UHGV virus genome: UHGV-1366603
Origin: a virus
Reading direction: 5' to 3' (one strand)
Length of the DNA: 64,000 nt
Both the position numbers and the translations under genes were made by a program. The notes under the pieces are model-generated. The model had not been told where the DNA came from and made no database searches. It was given only the letters and a program-made list of their open reading frames with translations. Below are positions 43,449 to 48,282 of the stretch, in pieces. How positions within the stretch are numbered: position 1 is the first letter of the stretch; the number at the start of each line of letters is the position of its first letter.

Positions 43449-43859
43449 ATGCGTGAACATATCCTCGATCTTAGTGTTTCTGTAGAAGAACTTGTCAATC
43501 AACTTGGCGGCACGGGTCATGGTCTTCATTCAAAGACGAACAGTATAAGCCATCTCCTCGACCCAGAGTACGAACGAAAACTCCACATGATCGCAACCGT
43601 TCGTAACAAAGCCATGCACGAGAATATTCTCCCTACCAACATTCAAGCCTTTGAACAAGCCGTAGCAGATACAAAAGTTTATTTGCTTGACCTCTGTTTG
43701 CGCCAAGAAAACCCTAGCCAGTCGGAACCCAAAGAGCCGGGTAAAAGAAAGCTTGGGTGGTCTGAAATGAATAAGAAGCAAAGAATCTATTACGGTATCG
43801 GTATTGCTATCGGCTGTGTCGCTATTGGTATTTTCGGTATAACAGGACCTAAAAGATGA
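43449..43859 (+). CDS. hypothetical protein with C-terminal TM anchor (136 aa)
   Basis: C-terminal hydrophobic segment IYYGIGIAIGCVAIGIFGI. Confidence 0.55.
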   Translation: MREHILDLSVSVEELVNQLGGTGHGLHSKTNSISHLLDPEYERKLHMIATVRNKAMHENILPTNIQAFEQAVADTKVYLLDLCLRQENPSQSEPKEPGKRKLGWSEMNKKQRIYYGIGIAIGCVAIGIFGITGPKR

Positions 43860-44401
43860 AACTCGTAAACATGACGGACGAGGTTTCTAAGTTTATTGTT
43901 TTCTTAGAAAACCAAAATGTAAAGCCGGGTGAGAACATTGACGAATGGATGCTTAGACTACACAGCACGATAGGTAAAGTGTGTGGGTCAATCACCTCAA
44001 TCGACAGTTTAGGTCTGGCCAGAAACATTGGGGTAGCCTTTTGGGATATTGCTGCTTTTGTCTACGTTACTAATAAAGGAAACTTACACCCGTTCTTAAG
44101 CTCTCTGGTAAGGATGAATGGGGTTCGTAAATGGAGCAACGACCCTATCGTGATACAGGGAAGTAAATTAGTTAACGCGGCAGTACGAACTATTGCTCTT
44201 GGGCAATGCCGTACGGGAAAATACACGGACAAATGTGAGATAGAACTCACGACGTTAACTTATCGCCTGGCGTCTGTTGCCAGAACCAACGGCTTAGTCG
44301 TAGACCGCGTTATCAAAAACGGTCGCGAGACGTGGGTTAAGGAACAAAACAAAGGCGATTTTCTCTCTTATCTTGAATTACACAAAATGATTAAAGGATA
44401 A
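43856..44401 (+). CDS. hypothetical protein (181 aa)
   Basis: ORF track; start overlaps the upstream stop. Confidence 0.55.
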   Translation: MKLVNMTDEVSKFIVFLENQNVKPGENIDEWMLRLHSTIGKVCGSITSIDSLGLARNIGVAFWDIAAFVYVTNKGNLHPFLSSLVRMNGVRKWSNDPIVIQGSKLVNAAVRTIALGQCRTGKYTDKCEIELTTLTYRLASVARTNGLVVDRVIKNGRETWVKEQNKGDFLSYLELHKMIKG

Positions 44402-44409
44402 TCAGTACG

Positions 44410-44718
44410 ATGGAAAACTATTCGGGTTGGGCAATTTCGCAGTGCATTGGCTATTCTTTACGTTCTTTAGTGCGTACACTTTATAACAAAAACTCAGGTG
44501 AAGCTATTACACCACAGTTACTGGGCAAATTGGAAGTCGAAGTTAACCACAAATTAAAGCAGTTACTCGACAACCACGTAAGAACAATGCGTTGGGAGTT
44601 TTTGTTGCGTGGTAAGAAGCCGTCAATTACTGTTGTGGCAGAAGGCAGTGAAATTGTTCTCCAATCCAACGCAGACCTGTTTGAAATTTTAACTGAACTC
44701 GAAAAGGACAAAATCTGA
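44410..44718 (+). CDS. hypothetical protein (102 aa)
   Basis: ORF track. Confidence 0.5.
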
Positions 44719-45752
44719 TGAAACAGTATTTAGCGTTAATGCAAGACATTCTGGATAACGGCGTTGTCAAGAAAGACCGTACAGGCGTAGGGACACTTTC
44801 TGTATTTGGCCGTCAACTACGTTTTGACCTGAAAGAAGGTTTCCCATTAGTTACTACGAAAAAGGTTCACCTGAAAAGTATCATTCATGAACTGCTGTGG
44901 TTCTTAAACGGTGACACTAACGTGAAGTACCTGCAAGAGAATGGGGTAAGAATTTGGAACGAATGGAGTGATGAAGAGGGGAACTTAGGGCCAGTATATG
45001 GTAAACAATGGCGCGAATGGCGCGACTGTAAAGTTGTGGAATGTCACGATGTAGGACGTACACAACAACTAATGCAGCTCGGTTACAAGTATATTGGGAA
45101 CATAAAGGAAGACGGTACGACGTATTTGGTCTATGAAAAAGCACATGACCAGATCAGTAAAGTTATCCAACAACTTCGTGAAGACCCAGATTCTCGCCGC
45201 ATTATTGTTAGTGCCTGGAACGTAGCCGACCTGGACGACATGGCACTTAACCCATGCCACAACTATTTCCAATTCTACACTACAGAAATGACACTGCTTG
45301 AACGACTGGATTGGTACGAAGTAAACGAGCCGGAAAAATTTGCGAGCGCACCGCTTATTAATCACGAAGATATTGATGATGAAGAGCGGCTTCAAGAAAC
45401 TTTAGATCGTGAGGGCATTCCACGCCGTAAGCTTTCATGTTTTTACATGATGCGGAGCAACGATTACCTACTCGGCGCGCCATTTAACATCGCTTCCTAC
45501 GCTCTGTTAACCTATATGGTTGCACAGCAGTTGAACATGGTTCCAGACGAACTCGTTTACAGCGGCGTAGATGTTCATCTGTACTCTAACCATCTGGAGC
45601 AAGCAAAACTTCAGCTTACACGCGAACCATACCCGTTACCTAAACTGGTTATCAAACGTAAACCTGATTCTATCTTCGATTACAAATACGAAGACTTCGA
45701 ATTAGTCGGCTATCAAGCACATCCACATATTGCGGCCCCCGTCGCAGTATAA
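44718..45752 (+). CDS. thyA: thymidylate synthase (ThyA-family) with two insertions
   Basis: N-terminal ~100 aa close to enterobacterial ThyA ([45 protein letters not shown]); catalytic NPCH and [10 protein letters not shown] present; C-terminus ..[28 protein letters not shown]..; extra segments at ~45020-45125 and ~45300-45440. Confidence 0.85.
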
Positions 45753-45782
45753 ATTACCACCTAATTAAAAAGGTATGATAAA

Positions 45783-46229
45783 ATGTCTAAAACTCATGTT
45801 AACTATAACATCGTAGTAGAAGAATTATCAAAAGGTTTAACCGATCTGGATTCTAAAGATAATCCGTTTACCGATCGCTATGGTCCCAATGCTTTGTCTG
45901 AATTTCGTACTATCCGCTACGGTACAGGTAGGCAGATGGGGCTTACAGACTTTGGTGTCGAGTTAGCTAAGAACCATAAAGGGAAAGTATTATTCGTTAA
46001 CCCAAAAGGGTTCTTAGAGGACGATGTGCTATTCCGTTTAGGTCTCGAAGACTTACCGGAGAATATCACACAAATCAGCGGTTACCAAATGGGTACAGAA
46101 AAAGAAAAATACAGCCTTGTCATTGTAGACGACGCTGGGGTTTTCTTTAGCATGTTCCGTTACATGAAGTTCTTCCGCTTACTTGCAAACTCAGTAACTA
46201 AAGACGTTGTAATCCATTTAATAGGTTAA
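45783..46229 (+). CDS. hypothetical protein (148 aa)
   Basis: ORF track. Confidence 0.55.
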   Translation: MSKTHVNYNIVVEELSKGLTDLDSKDNPFTDRYGPNALSEFRTIRYGTGRQMGLTDFGVELAKNHKGKVLFVNPKGFLEDDVLFRLGLEDLPENITQISGYQMGTEKEKYSLVIVDDAGVFFSMFRYMKFFRLLANSVTKDVVIHLIG

Positions 46230-46249
46230 TTAATGACGAGGGAATTCTT

Positions 46250-46400
46250 TATGTCGAATGATGTCATTAAAGTTACTATAAAGTATATCAATCTGAATAA
46301 GAGAATCCGTTGCAAAGTAAATCGTAAAGCTATCGCTAGTCGCTGGCGTAAAGGACCACACAAGGGTCGTAAACGCTTTCTGGCTTTTTGGGATGTCTGA
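46250..46400 (+). CDS. small basic protein (49 aa)
   Basis: MSNDVIKVTIKYINLNKRIRCKVNRKAIASRWRKGPHKGRKRFLAFWDV; below the ORF-track cutoff. Confidence 0.3.
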
Positions 46401-46624
46401 TGAAAAAACCACGTTTTCACAGCCTGAGATACTTTACAGGTACTCTATATTTTATTGGCTACAACCGTGTACGTAAGGGTCCTGGTAAATCGAAGATGCG
46501 CATCGTGCGATATAAAGAGACGCCGCCAGGTCTAGCACCGATGGCGAAACTTCTGTCGCCGTTCGCTAACCTTAATATCAAAACTGTTAACCCCTTTGTA
46601 AGAAATCTGGAAACTAAAAAATGA
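46400..46624 (+). CDS. small basic protein (~74 aa)
   Basis: ATG overlapping the upstream stop (TGATG); ..RVRKGPGKSKMRIVRYK.. resembles the RWRKGPHKGRKRF segment of the preceding ORF. Confidence 0.4.
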   Translation: MKKPRFHSLRYFTGTLYFIGYNRVRKGPGKSKMRIVRYKETPPGLAPMAKLLSPFANLNIKTVNPFVRNLETKK

Positions 46625-46764
46625 CTGAAGAAGTTAAAGTAGAAGCCGTTAAAGAAACTGACGAATTTGCAATCCCTGGCTTAGACCCGGAAGCGACCGT
46701 AGAGAAAGGTGCTGACCCAACTACGGAAGACGATAACTGCTCAGGCGGGGCTTGCAAAATTTAA
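46621..46764 (+). CDS. small acidic peptide with C-terminal CSGGACKI (47 aa)
   Basis: ATG overlapping the upstream stop; below the ORF-track cutoff. Confidence 0.3.
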   Translation: MTEEVKVEAVKETDEFAIPGLDPEATVEKGADPTTEDDNCSGGACKI

Positions 46765-46772
46765 CAGTTCAC

Positions 46773-46813
46773 GGGGTGCTTATGTAGCACCCCTAATCCT
46801 TATTCTTTTTTTG
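46773..46813 (+). terminator. rho-independent terminator (GGGGTGC-TATGTA-GCACCCC + long T-run)
   Basis: Seen directly in the sequence. Confidence 0.6.
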
Positions 46814-46834
46814 TTAATCTAATGGAGTTTTAGA

Positions 46835-47665
46835 ATGGGCGAACGTTTTAACATCAACGCTATTTACAACATCGTAGTTAATCCTGGTCAGCACCTGGAA
46901 GAAGTTAACGCGCAACTGCGTGCTCTGAATGAGAAGGCAATACAGTTCGACGCCATTTACACAATCGGTGTAAACCCTGGTACCAATCGTATTCGCGTGG
47001 AAGGTAAACGACACACCGGCACTCAAGAACTGGACATCGAAACGATTGAAGCACCGATTAAACTTACTGATGCTGTTTATAACGGTACAGTAATGCACAC
47101 CGTATCGGTTCCGGTCTATTCTATTGCGAACTGTGCAGAACATGTTAAAGGTTGGTCTAAAGAACGCGGCATCCTCGATAACGGTAAACTGGAAACTCAA
47201 ATCACGAAATTCTTTGAAGAGTTTGGTGAAATTGCAACGGGTATCAGTAAAAACAAACCTGATTTGATCATGGACGGGATCGGCGATGCGTTAGTGGTTT
47301 TAGTGAACATCCTGGAGCTGGGTAAAGACAAACTGTCTGGAGAAATGACAACCGCTGAAATCATCGAGCACGGTTTACAGTTGCAGGTAGATGATGTCGC
47401 TGACGTTGAAGAACATTTTGATGACAACGGGTATCCACATCATTTGTATCTCCACGCTACCGAAATCTTCGCTACCGCATTTATTCGCTCCGATGCTGGG
47501 TTCGATCAGCTTAACTGGGCTTTGTACCGCCTTGCAAAACTGGCTCTCTACTATCGTCTTGACATTCGTCATTGTTTCTCTTTAGCCTGGCACGAAATCA
47601 AAGACCGTAAAGGTTACCTGAACGCCGACGGCATCTTTGTAAAAGAAGCAGACTTGGCGAAATAA
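46835..47665 (+). CDS. MazG-like nucleoside triphosphate pyrophosphohydrolase domain protein with N-terminal extension
   Basis: ..KFFEEFGEIATG..(x10)..LIMDGIGDALVVLVNILELG.. matches the MazG EExxE ... E/DxxGD helix pair. Confidence 0.6.
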   Translation: MGERFNINAIYNIVVNPGQHLEEVNAQLRALNEKAIQFDAIYTIGVNPGTNRIRVEGKRHTGTQELDIETIEAPIKLTDAVYNGTVMHTVSVPVYSIANCAEHVKGWSKERGILDNGKLETQITKFFEEFGEIATGISKNKPDLIMDGIGDALVVLVNILELGKDKLSGEMTTAEIIEHGLQLQVDDVADVEEHFDDNGYPHHLYLHATEIFATAFIRSDAGFDQLNWALYRLAKLALYYRLDIRHCFSLAWHEIKDRKGYLNADGIFVKEADLAK

Positions 47666-47673
47666 ATAAAAGT

Positions 47674-47720
47674 ACCTACCTCCGAAAGGAGGTAGGTTAA
47701 CTTTCTTTTTTTCTTTTTTT
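47674..47720. terminator. bidirectional terminator (CCTACCTCC-GAAA-GGAGGTAGG, T-runs both sides)
   Basis: Between convergent genes 46835..47665 and 47719..48282. Confidence 0.6.
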
Positions 47721-48282
47721 AAGCGCCAGGAACAATCCCAGAAGAGATATACGTCAAACCGTCAAGTTCGGTAACTTTAATCAGTTTCGAAATATCCTTA
47801 CCGTCAGACGGCAGTTCAGTTAAGTACACTTCCAACTGACCTGTCCAAGCTAAAGATCTCCCGTTCATGATAATGATGGTTTTATCTTTGCTGTCTGGCG
47901 CAGCTGTTGGGTTCTCAACTTCGTCGTCCGTAATCTGTAAGTTATATTTCGTACGGAATAGTTCCAATACTTCAGAAACAGTAGCAGCGTTCACACCTGC
48001 GACAGAGACAACGAAATCACCTAACAGATGTTCCAAATCCAACCGACGATAAATAACGTCAATTTTACCAAACGTTTTCTGTTCAATAATTCCCTGGACG
48101 CTGAGTTGAGTATTTAATCGCGTAAATTGAGTTTCTGGTGTTTCTACTGCGGGGATATGTGCCGGTGTGCCGAAATTCAATTTATCGATTGTAATACCTT
48201 TCTCTACCAAACCTGGATTCTTTTTTACTAATAACTCATAAACCAGTTGTTTTCCTGATTTACCTAATAGCGTATTAGCCAT
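47719..48282 (-). CDS. hypothetical protein (187 aa), possibly virion-associated
   Basis: ORF track; first gene of the minus-strand block. Confidence 0.55.
   Translation of the reverse strand: MANTLLGKSGKQLVYELLVKKNPGLVEKGITIDKLNFGTPAHIPAVETPETQFTRLNTQLSVQGIIEQKTFGKIDVIYRRLDLEHLLGDFVVSVAGVNAATVSEVLELFRTKYNLQITDDEVENPTAAPDSKDKTIIIMNGRSLAWTGQLEVYLTELPSDGKDISKLIKVTELDGLTYISSGIVPGA

What the first reader, a model, noticed from the sequence alone, without database searches (positions are those of the whole stretch)
46835..47665. MazG-like pyrophosphohydrolase with an unknown ~120-aa N-terminal domain near thyA
The MazG helix pair (FFEEFGEIA ... DGIGDALVVL) lies in the C-terminal half; the N-terminal half has no recognisable motif. 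Together with ThyA about 1 kb upstream this forms a small nucleotide-metabolism cluster. Phage MazG-like proteins can sanitise the dNTP pool or degrade alarmones and signalling nucleotides.
Basis: partly seen in the sequence, partly recalled or inferred. Interest (0 to 1): 0.35.

Follow-up and report, generated by a model that had tools for sequence, protein, structure and literature searches.

The report
Jumbo-phage MazG-like nucleotide pyrophosphatase gene
This gene of a giant Salmonella/E. coli phage encodes a probable enzyme that clips pyrophosphate off nucleotide triphosphates, fused to a small extra domain seen only in this phage group; it is a diverged copy of a gene family already annotated in related phages, so it is fairly ordinary.

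Summary
The ORF is real: 46835-47665 (+), 276 aa. It is the ortholog of SPN3US gp235, a family (PHROG 7855) already annotated 'mazG nucleotide pyrophosphohydrolase'.

It has four parts:
- Residues 1-95: a clade-restricted alpha+beta domain with cystatin-like topology and no significant structural or sequence relative.
- Residues 96-163 and 239-276: an all-alpha NTP-pyrophosphohydrolase core. E128, E129, D147, E254 and D257 are invariant; E132 and D151 are nearly invariant.
- Residues 164-238: a variable helical insert that splits the core.

The whole gene is under purifying selection (dN/dS 0.14; N-domain 0.13). Linkage to thyA is kept across the clade, but 2-8 changeable small ORFs lie between the two genes.

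A 222-kb relative carries thyA, DHFR and a 5'-nucleotidase, and no canonical dUTPase was found in it. The best guess is therefore a Mg-dependent (d)NTP to (d)NMP + PPi enzyme, possibly acting on dUTP/dCTP to feed ThyA. Substrate and N-domain role remain untested.

Verdict: a new member of a known kind, of low to moderate interest.

The parts
46835..47665 (+). Complete ORF, 276 aa plus stop. Ortholog of SPN3US gp235 / PHROG 7855, 'mazG nucleotide pyrophosphohydrolase'.
   Evidence: for the ORF. PHROG 7855 matches full length at E 6.4e-72. tblastn finds 33-44% identity over 98-100% of the query in SPN3US-like jumbo phages. dN/dS is 0.14.
46824..46827 (+). GGAG ribosome-binding site, 8 nt before the ATG.
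   Evidence: Read directly from the sequence.
46835..47119 (+). N-terminal accessory domain, residues 1-95. Predicted as strand-helix-four strands, a cystatin-like alpha+beta roll topology. Restricted to this phage clade.
47120..47323 (+). Catalytic core, first part (residues 96-163). Helix 1 carries W107 and R111; helix 2 carries Q122, K125 and E128-E129-x-x-E132; helix 3 carries D147-G-x-G-D151.
   Evidence: These columns are invariant or nearly invariant in 48 family members and shared with stand-alone phage homologues. Pfam MazG matches residues 120-168. dN/dS is 0.06.
47216..47230 (+). EEFGE, residues 128-132: the predicted metal-binding ExxE motif.
   Evidence: It aligns to EEVGE of solved MazG 1vmg.
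47273..47287 (+). DGIGD, residues 147-151: the second acidic motif. The family has D-x3-D in place of the canonical ExxD.
   Evidence: It aligns to EELAD of 1vmg.
47324..47548 (+). Variable helical insert, residues 164-238, between core helices 3 and 4.
   Evidence: The insert is absent from the Staphylococcus phage phiRS7 homologue and varies in length and sequence in the others. Within the close clade 60% of its positions vary. dN/dS is 0.23, with a mosaic grouping of sequences. pLDDT is lower here, 69-87.
47549..47662 (+). Catalytic core, second part (residues 239-276): the last helix with E254-I-K256-D257-R258-K-G, then a beta-hairpin LNADGIFVKEAD.
   Evidence: Invariant columns. dN/dS is 0.04. 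Secondary structure.
47674..47697 (.). A 10-bp GC-rich hairpin flanked by T-runs on both strands: a bidirectional terminator-like site between the convergent MazG-like gene and the virion gene 47719-48282 (-).
   Evidence: plus the sequence.
44718..45752 (+). thyA, thymidylate synthase of 344 aa with insertions relative to the 266-position Pfam model. Syntenic partner of the MazG-like gene.
   Evidence: Pfam PF00303 E 2.9e-110. The same gene order is seen in SPN3US, Asesino, CR5 and four metagenomic or isolate relatives.
43856..44401 (+). 181-aa protein upstream of thyA (phrog_10269, N-terminal part of SPN3US gp228). Probably a degenerate MazG-like paralogue that lacks the acidic residues.
   Evidence: phrog_10269 matches both this ORF and residues 95-170 of the target. 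hhalign of the two family alignments gives probability 83% and E 8.7e-6, in register over helices 1-3.

Best explanation
The gene encodes a soluble two-part enzyme.

The catalytic part (residues 96-276) is an all-alpha nucleoside-triphosphate pyrophosphohydrolase of the MazG / dimeric-dUTPase superfamily. As in solved relatives, it probably acts as a homo-oligomer and binds Mg2+ through E128/E129/E132 and D147/D151. The phosphates would be held by K125, K256 and R258. The enzyme would cut between the alpha and beta phosphates of a (d)NTP, giving (d)NMP + PPi. All of this is inferred, not shown.

The most likely physiological substrates are pyrimidine dNTPs (dUTP, perhaps dCTP). The enzyme would then do two things: keep uracil out of phage DNA, and deliver dUMP to the phage thymidylate synthase encoded upstream, with the phage DHFR recycling the folate. 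This substrate assignment is inference from fold neighbours and gene content only.

A variable helical insert (residues 164-238) splits the core. It gives the domain the extended shape of dimeric dUTPases.

The N-terminal 95 residues form a separate, selected, clade-specific alpha+beta domain. Its role is unknown; the best guess is an oligomerisation or partner-binding module. It is not a second enzyme, because it has no conserved polar cluster (only M1, F5, L21 and G57 are conserved).
For: Family and fold:
- PHROG 7855 matches full length at E 6e-72, and the stand-alone 'MazG-like pyrophosphatase' family PHROG 715 at E 7e-26.
- Pfam MazG scores 20.3-21.2 bits on the target. The Mannheimia phage homologue passes the cut-off with 24.9 bits.
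- A profile of the core plus stand-alone homologues hits solved MazG 1vmg at E 2.3e-4, followed by YpjD, 2yxh, 5ie9 and iMazG.
- The AlphaFold model is confident (pLDDT 86.8, pTM 0.78).

Conservation:
- The acidic and basic residues are invariant or nearly invariant across 48 family members and 134 close relatives.
- dN/dS of the core is 0.04-0.06, and of the N-domain 0.13.

Context:
- thyA lies upstream on the same strand in all relatives examined.
- The 222-kb relative NZ_CP173450.1 is annotated with thyA, DHFR and an NT5C 5'-nucleotidase, but no dUTPase, dCTP deaminase or RNR.
- tblastn with E. coli Dut and Dcd finds nothing below E 2.
- Staphylococcus phage dimeric Duts are published as conserved catalytic motifs flanking a variable central region, with both dUTPase and dCTPase activity (PMC5608427).
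Against: - No biochemical data exist for any member of this family.
- The Pfam MazG score is below the gathering cut-off, and Pfam dUTPase_2 gives no hit at E<=1.
- The second metal motif is DGxGD, not the canonical ExxD.
- Identity to dimeric dUTPases is only 7-14%, so their uracil-specific residues cannot be mapped.
- Foldseek against the PDB gave no hit at E<=0.001.
- Stand-alone homologues in temperate phages are not next to thyA.
- Within the jumbo clade 2-8 unrelated small ORFs separate the two genes, so the linkage may reflect overall genome collinearity.
Confidence: 0.7

Rival explanations
1. It is a generic 'house-cleaning' MazG. The enzyme would hydrolyse non-canonical or damaged (d)NTPs (oxidised, deaminated or modified bases) to protect replication of the phage genome, with no special link to dUMP supply or ThyA.
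For: By sequence the nearest solved relatives are MazG proteins (1vmg, YpjD, 2yxh, iMazG). Stand-alone homologues are spread through temperate phages of Streptococcus, Staphylococcus, Haemophilus, Mannheimia and Acinetobacter that have no thyA nearby. A jumbo-phage genomics survey treats MazG-like triphosphatases as possible degraders of unwanted nucleotides (PMC7824862).
Against: This reading does not explain the conserved thyA linkage in the jumbo clade or the apparent lack of another dUTPase. The best structural matches are dUTPases. The two readings overlap, since dUTP is itself a 'non-canonical' dNTP.
Confidence: 0.2
2. It is an alarmone or signal degrader. The enzyme would hydrolyse (p)ppGpp or another host signalling nucleotide to keep the infected cell metabolically active or to blunt a defence signal.
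For: The only support is the general precedent that MazG has been linked to the nutritional-stress response (title of PDB entry 3cra). The host phage also belongs to the 'persistent' Seoul-like jumbo phages, where host physiology control would be useful.
Against: There is no PADLOC or anti-defence family match, and no context genes connected with signalling. The closest folds act on dNTPs. To my knowledge, not checked here, a cyanophage MazG tested in vitro did not hydrolyse (p)ppGpp.
Confidence: 0.05
3. It is mainly a protein-binding, moonlighting factor. As with Staphylococcus phage Duts that bind the SaPI repressor Stl, the variable insert and the N-terminal domain would be interaction surfaces for a host, satellite or phage partner, with catalysis secondary or regulatory.
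For: The insert is the most variable part: 60% of its positions vary in the close clade, and its dN/dS of 0.23 is the highest of the four regions. The insert and the N-domain group the six sequences differently, which indicates recombination of modules. The published parallel is conserved catalytic motifs flanking a hypervariable 'motif VI' in phage dimeric Duts (PMC5608427). A probable inactive paralogue sits on the other side of thyA.
Against: All regions have dN/dS well below 1, so there is no sign of diversifying selection at region level. The catalytic residues are strictly kept. No partner is known.
Confidence: 0.05

Closest known systems
SPN3US gp235 (RefSeq ACQ60_gp031) and its orthologues in Seoulvirus, Erskinevirus, Machinavirus, Wellingtonvirus and Derbicusvirus jumbo phages (PHROG 7855, annotated 'mazG nucleotide pyrophosphohydrolase')
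   Same: They share the three-part architecture (N-domain, core, insert), the invariant residues, and the position between thyA and the convergent virion and tail-fibre genes.
   Different: Identity is only 33-44%, and the target lineage has no near DNA match among deposited phages. The target lacks the C-terminal extensions of SPN3US (313 aa) and of the Wellingtonvirus proteins (444-460 aa). Fewer genes lie between thyA and the MazG-like gene. None of these orthologues has been characterised experimentally, as far as the paper searches showed.
Stand-alone phage 'MazG-like pyrophosphatase' proteins (PHROG 715 / 1994; e.g. Haemophilus phage HP1 orf12, Mannheimia phage 587AP2 gp39, Streptococcus phage Javan336_0032, Staphylococcus phage phiRS7 Orf56)
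   Same: The core motifs are the same: W...R, Q..K..EEFGE, D.IGD..VV, C...A..EIKDRKG, G.F.KE.D. Identity over the catalytic domain is 26-35%.
   Different: They have no N-terminal domain. The insert is shorter, different or absent. They sit in early or replication modules of temperate phages and are not next to thyA.
Canonical MazG (Pfam PF03819; solved examples Sulfolobus SSO3215 1vmg, B. subtilis YpjD 2gta, E. coli MazG 3cra)
   Different: The Pfam score is below the gathering cut-off. The second motif is DGxGD instead of ExxD. There is a 75-aa insert, a C-terminal IKDRKG helix plus beta-hairpin, and an extra N-terminal domain.
Dimeric dUTPases (Pfam PF08761; C. jejuni 1w2y, L. major 2yay, Staphylococcus phage Duts 5myd/5mil)

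Membership tests
PHROG 7855 (jumbo-phage 'mazG nucleotide pyrophosphohydrolase') | Full-length profile match. | tested here: met
   E 6.4e-72; residues 1-274 match profile positions 1-290 of 291. The N-domain alone still matches at E 6.7e-11.
PHROG 7855 (jumbo-phage 'mazG nucleotide pyrophosphohydrolase') | Conserved genomic position, downstream of thyA and convergent with the virion and tail-fibre genes. | tested here: met
   The same order is seen in SPN3US, Asesino and four close relatives. In CR5 thyA lies 3.4 kb upstream.
MazG family (Pfam PF03819) / all-alpha NTP pyrophosphohydrolase superfamily | Pfam MazG score at or above the gathering cut-off of 22 bits. | tested here: not met
   The full protein scores 20.3 bits and the catalytic domain alone 21.2 bits. 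Of 48 family members, 28 match at E<0.1, the best at 3e-4. A stand-alone homologue from a Mannheimia phage passes with 24.9 bits.
MazG family (Pfam PF03819) / all-alpha NTP pyrophosphohydrolase superfamily | All-alpha four-helix-bundle fold that superposes on solved members. | tested here: met
MazG family (Pfam PF03819) / all-alpha NTP pyrophosphohydrolase superfamily | Metal-binding signature ExxE-x(12-28)-ExxD. The motif is quoted from my knowledge of the family. | tested here: inconclusive
   E129-x-x-E132 is present, along with E128, and the spacing to the second motif is 14 residues. The second motif is D147-G-x-G-D151, which is D-x3-D with Gly at the canonical Glu position. This variant is invariant across the whole phage family.
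MazG family (Pfam PF03819) / all-alpha NTP pyrophosphohydrolase superfamily | Mg-dependent hydrolysis of (d)NTP to (d)NMP + PPi, and homo-oligomeric assembly. | not testable with these tools
   This needs purified protein. No multimer prediction was available.
Dimeric dUTPase (Pfam PF08761, dUTPase_2) | Sequence-profile match. | tested here: not met
   No hit at E<=1 for the catalytic domain and none at E<=0.1 for 48 family members. PHROG hits include no dUTPase or dCTPase family.
Dimeric dUTPase (Pfam PF08761, dUTPase_2) | Fold similarity to solved dimeric dUTPases. | tested here: met
Dimeric dUTPase (Pfam PF08761, dUTPase_2) | The five catalytic motifs, including the uracil- and deoxyribose-specific residues of motif IV (described in PMC5608427). 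| not tested
   At 7-14% identity the motifs cannot be placed without model coordinates or a structure-based alignment, and the tools did not return either.
Cystatin-like fold (N-terminal domain only) | Significant structural match, and the cystatin QxVxG inhibitory loop. The motif is quoted from my knowledge. | tested here: not met

The most novel reading that the evidence does not exclude
The clade-specific N-terminal domain and the recombining, variable insert may make this enzyme a regulated or moonlighting component of a phage thymidylate-synthesis assembly. It would work together with ThyA and the catalytically dead MazG-like paralogue encoded on the other side of thyA. Alternatively it may be a protein that is sensed by, or that targets, a host or satellite factor, as Staphylococcus phage Duts do with Stl. 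Either case would be a new example of an all-alpha NTP pyrophosphatase recruited for signalling or complex formation in nucleus-forming, persistently infecting jumbo phages.
Probability: 0.1. Interest if true: 0.55.

Novelty: new member of a known kind. Interest (0 to 1): 0.25.

Why it matters
If the enzyme is the phage's own dUTP/dCTP pyrophosphatase, it would explain how SPN3US-like nucleus-forming phages feed ThyA and keep uracil out of their DNA. These phages appear to carry thyA and DHFR but no canonical dUTPase or ribonucleotide reductase. It would also add a biochemically defined member to a large, uncharacterised phage branch of the MazG/dimeric-dUTPase superfamily. The N-terminal domain is a small orphan fold under selection. 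Learning its role (oligomerisation, localisation relative to the phage nucleus, or partner binding) could be of modest interest for Chimalliviridae biology. As it stands, the finding mainly confirms an existing database annotation.

Tried and rejected
- Near-DNA search against deposited phages found no match. The lineage is known only from bacterial assemblies and 'plasmid' records.
- Direct sequence search of the PDB with the protein and with the 48-member family profile gave only noise (HI0817, tropomyosin). A profile that included short stand-alone homologues was needed to reach MazG structures.
- NCBIfam and PADLOC gave nothing for the target.
- An exhaustive phmmer search with residues 1-100 returned a 613-aa repeat protein, P0191 (E 9e-12, five stretches). 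I rejected it. Its repeats are identical, so the score is a sum of one weak match, and the same protein 'hits' unrelated Pfam and PHROG families in the same way. P0192 was rejected likewise.
- The apparent internal repeat in the N-domain (NAIYNIVVNPG / DAIYTIGVNPG) corresponds to two strand-plus-turn elements and is not conserved in orthologues. I did not pursue it.
- Rfam and tRNA scans of the thyA-to-mazG interval and the window found nothing.
- The sigma-70 promoter scan did not exceed shuffled expectation.
- A search for a canonical trimeric dUTPase or dCTP deaminase in the 222-kb relative was negative.
- Literature searches for SPN3US gp235 or a characterised member of this family found nothing relevant. 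The 'gp235' mention followed up (PMC6893735) concerns a thymidylate synthase, not a MazG-like protein; the other hit (PMC10585845) was not read.

Full report
**Observation**

The window has an ATG-to-TAA ORF at 46835-47665 on the + strand, encoding 276 aa. A GGAG lies 8 nt upstream. A strong hairpin flanked by T-runs follows at 47674-47697, separating the gene from a convergent virion gene. thyA (44718-45752, Pfam E 3e-110) ends 1,083 bp upstream. The corrections concern the domain boundary and the fact that the catalytic domain has a third conserved block at the C-terminus.

**What the element is**

The window belongs to a jumbo phage of about 222-225 kb that is distantly related to Salmonella phage SPN3US.
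- The gene has no near-DNA match among 50,697 deposited phage records.
- Proteins 96-100% identical occur on 220-226 kb contigs of more than 100 Salmonella, E. coli and Shigella isolate assemblies.
- DNA 94% identical is deposited as 'plasmids' of E. coli 98232 and Enterobacter ludwigii.
- This matches the 'Seoul-like persistent jumbo phages' described in bioRxiv 10.1101/2024.12.31.630880.

**Family**

The protein matches PHROG 7855, 'mazG nucleotide pyrophosphohydrolase', over its whole length at E 6e-72. tblastn finds full-length orthologues at 33-44% identity in SPN3US (gp235 in GenBank), Erwinia phages Asesino, Caitlin, Kwan and Huxley, and Cronobacter phage CR5.

The position is syntenic in SPN3US, Asesino and the close relatives: a phrog_10269 gene, thyA, a few small ORFs, the MazG-like gene, then convergent virion, 733-aa and tail-fibre genes. 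In CR5 thyA lies 3.4 kb upstream on the same strand, but its other neighbours are unnamed. The number of ORFs between thyA and the MazG-like gene ranges from 2 to 8 and they are not conserved. The 'nucleotide cluster' is thus conserved linkage rather than a tight operon.

**Domain anatomy**

An AlphaFold2 model built on a 48-sequence alignment is confident (pLDDT 86.8, pTM 0.78).
- Residues 4-93 form strand-helix-strand-strand-strand-strand.
- Residues 97-255 are all helical.
- Residues 260-270 form a hairpin.

Stand-alone homologues of 100-186 aa in Streptococcus, Staphylococcus, Haemophilus, Mannheimia and Acinetobacter phages align from residue ~97 onwards. They share these motifs:
- W107...R111
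- Q122..K125..E128-E129-F-G-E132
- D147-x-I-G-D151..VV
- C246...A251..E254-I-K-D-R-K-G260
- G266.F.KE.D273

The Staphylococcus phage phiRS7 homologue has no residues between the third and fourth helices. In the target, 75 variable residues (164-238) lie there.

The protein is therefore N-domain (1-95) + core part 1 (96-163) + insert (164-238) + core part 2 (239-276). The 'unknown N-terminal domain' is about 95 aa, not about 120.

**Is it a MazG?**

By sequence the match is marginal.
- Pfam MazG scores 20.3 bits against a cut-off of 22. No family member passes, but a stand-alone Mannheimia phage homologue does, with 24.9 bits.
- NCBIfam gives nothing.
- The 48-member profile finds nothing in the PDB.
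- A profile of the core plus stand-alone homologues hits Sulfolobus MazG 1vmg at E 2.3e-4, followed by YpjD, 2yxh, 5ie9 and iMazG. That alignment places EEFGE on EEVGE and D-x-I-G-D on E-E-L-A-D.

By structure the match is clearer.

Pfam dUTPase_2 gives no hit. I conclude that the domain belongs to the all-alpha NTP pyrophosphohydrolase superfamily, in a phage-specific MazG-like branch. Its helical insert gives it the extended shape of dimeric dUTPases. It fails the formal Pfam membership tests for both named families.

**Selection**
- Among 134 close alleles (84-100% identity), variable positions make up 45% of the N-domain, 22% and 21% of the two core parts, and 60% of the insert. The catalytic residues change only in two singletons.
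- Nei-Gojobori dN/dS over six clade members is 0.13 for the N-domain, 0.06 and 0.04 for the core, 0.23 for the insert and 0.14 overall.
- The N-domain is therefore a real, constrained part of the protein. The insert is relaxed but not under detectable positive selection.
- The N-domain and the insert group the six sequences differently, and dS differs sharply between regions of the same pair. This points to recombination between modules.

**N-terminal domain**
- tblastn and an exhaustive phmmer search of 1.8 billion representatives find it only in this jumbo-phage clade, and always fused to the MazG-like domain.
- Modelled alone it folds the same way (pLDDT 84.6).
- Only M1, F5, L21 and G57 are conserved across genera, which argues against a second catalytic site.
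- Its function is open. An oligomerisation or partner-binding role is my guess.

**Function**

The 222-kb relative NZ_CP173450.1 is annotated with thyA, dihydrofolate reductase and an NT5C-type 5'-nucleotidase. It has no annotated dUTPase, dCTP deaminase, dCMP deaminase or ribonucleotide reductase.

ThyA keeps the PCH catalytic cysteine and the FNIASY asparagine typical of dUMP-using enzymes. This is read and interpreted from my knowledge of the family. The presence of DHFR fits a true methylating thymidylate synthase.

Four observations make a dUTP (and perhaps dCTP) pyrophosphatase that supplies dUMP and excludes uracil the most economical reading:
- the conserved thyA linkage;
- the dUTPase-like fold;
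- the apparent lack of another dUTPase;
- the published dUTPase and dCTPase activities of phage dimeric Duts (PMC5608427).

The substrate is nevertheless inferred, not shown. A general house-cleaning role is the main rival. Nothing found here supports alarmone hydrolysis or an anti-defence role.

**Comparison and novelty**

The gene is a diverged orthologue (at most 44% identity) of a family that RefSeq and PHROGs already call MazG. I found no experimental work on any member. It is a new member of a known kind. The orphan N-domain, the modular variability and the probable inactive paralogue upstream of thyA (hhalign probability 83%, E 9e-6) are the only mildly unusual features. I score interest at 0.25.

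Noticed in passing
whole window (1-64000); relatives NZ_CP173450.1 (L009-L013) and NZ_CP134650.1: The window is part of a SPN3US-like, chimallin-type jumbo phage of about 222 kb. It has no near-DNA match among deposited phages, but near-identical copies sit on 220-226 kb contigs of more than 100 Salmonella, E. coli and Shigella isolate assemblies and are deposited as circular 'plasmids'. This fits the 'Seoul-like persistent jumbo phages' of bioRxiv 10.1101/2024.12.31.630880.
   Followed up: partly
window 43856-44401 and 44410-44718 (+): The gene upstream of thyA is a single 289-303 aa ORF in SPN3US (gp228) and Asesino. Here and in all close relatives it is two ORFs (181 + 102 aa) in different frames. 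The first part aligns in register with helices 1-3 of the MazG-like core (hhalign probability 83%, E 9e-6) but has lost every acidic residue (EEFGE becomes HSTIGK, DGIGD becomes RNIGV). It is probably an inactive paralogue flanking thyA.
   Followed up: partly
window 45753-46834: The thyA-to-MazG interval is a hot spot of small-gene turnover. It holds 2 ORFs plus a 390-bp stretch with no called gene (46230-46620) here, other combinations of 47-148 aa ORFs in four close relatives, 5 genes in SPN3US and 8 in CR5. No Rfam family or tRNA was found in it.
   Followed up: partly
window 46773-46793 (+): A GGGGTGC-N7-GCACCCC hairpin lies directly after the 47-aa ORF (stop at 46762-46764). A T-run follows about 10 nt later and the MazG-like start about 40 nt later. 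It may be a terminator or attenuator that isolates the MazG-like gene transcriptionally. The consensus scan did not call it.
   Followed up: no
window 43614-44409 compared with L012: The window and the E. coli 'plasmid' relative are 96-97% identical on both sides of this stretch but have no blastn alignment across about 800 bp, which covers the 181-aa ORF (41% protein identity). The relative also has an extra 321-bp ORF before thyA. This is a locally replaced segment.
   Followed up: no
P0155, P0156, P0161, P0166: A second lineage, CR5-like (Derbicusvirus-related) with 293-295 aa MazG-like proteins, also turns up on contigs of about 224 kb in Salmonella enterica isolate assemblies. More than one jumbo-phage lineage therefore seems to persist in Salmonella isolates.
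   Followed up: no
L005 and L008 (Erwinia phages Kwan and pEa_SNUABM_11): The Wellingtonvirus orthologues are 444-460 aa. They carry an extra C-terminal extension of about 150 aa after the KExD hairpin, with no counterpart in the target. It was not analysed.
   Followed up: no
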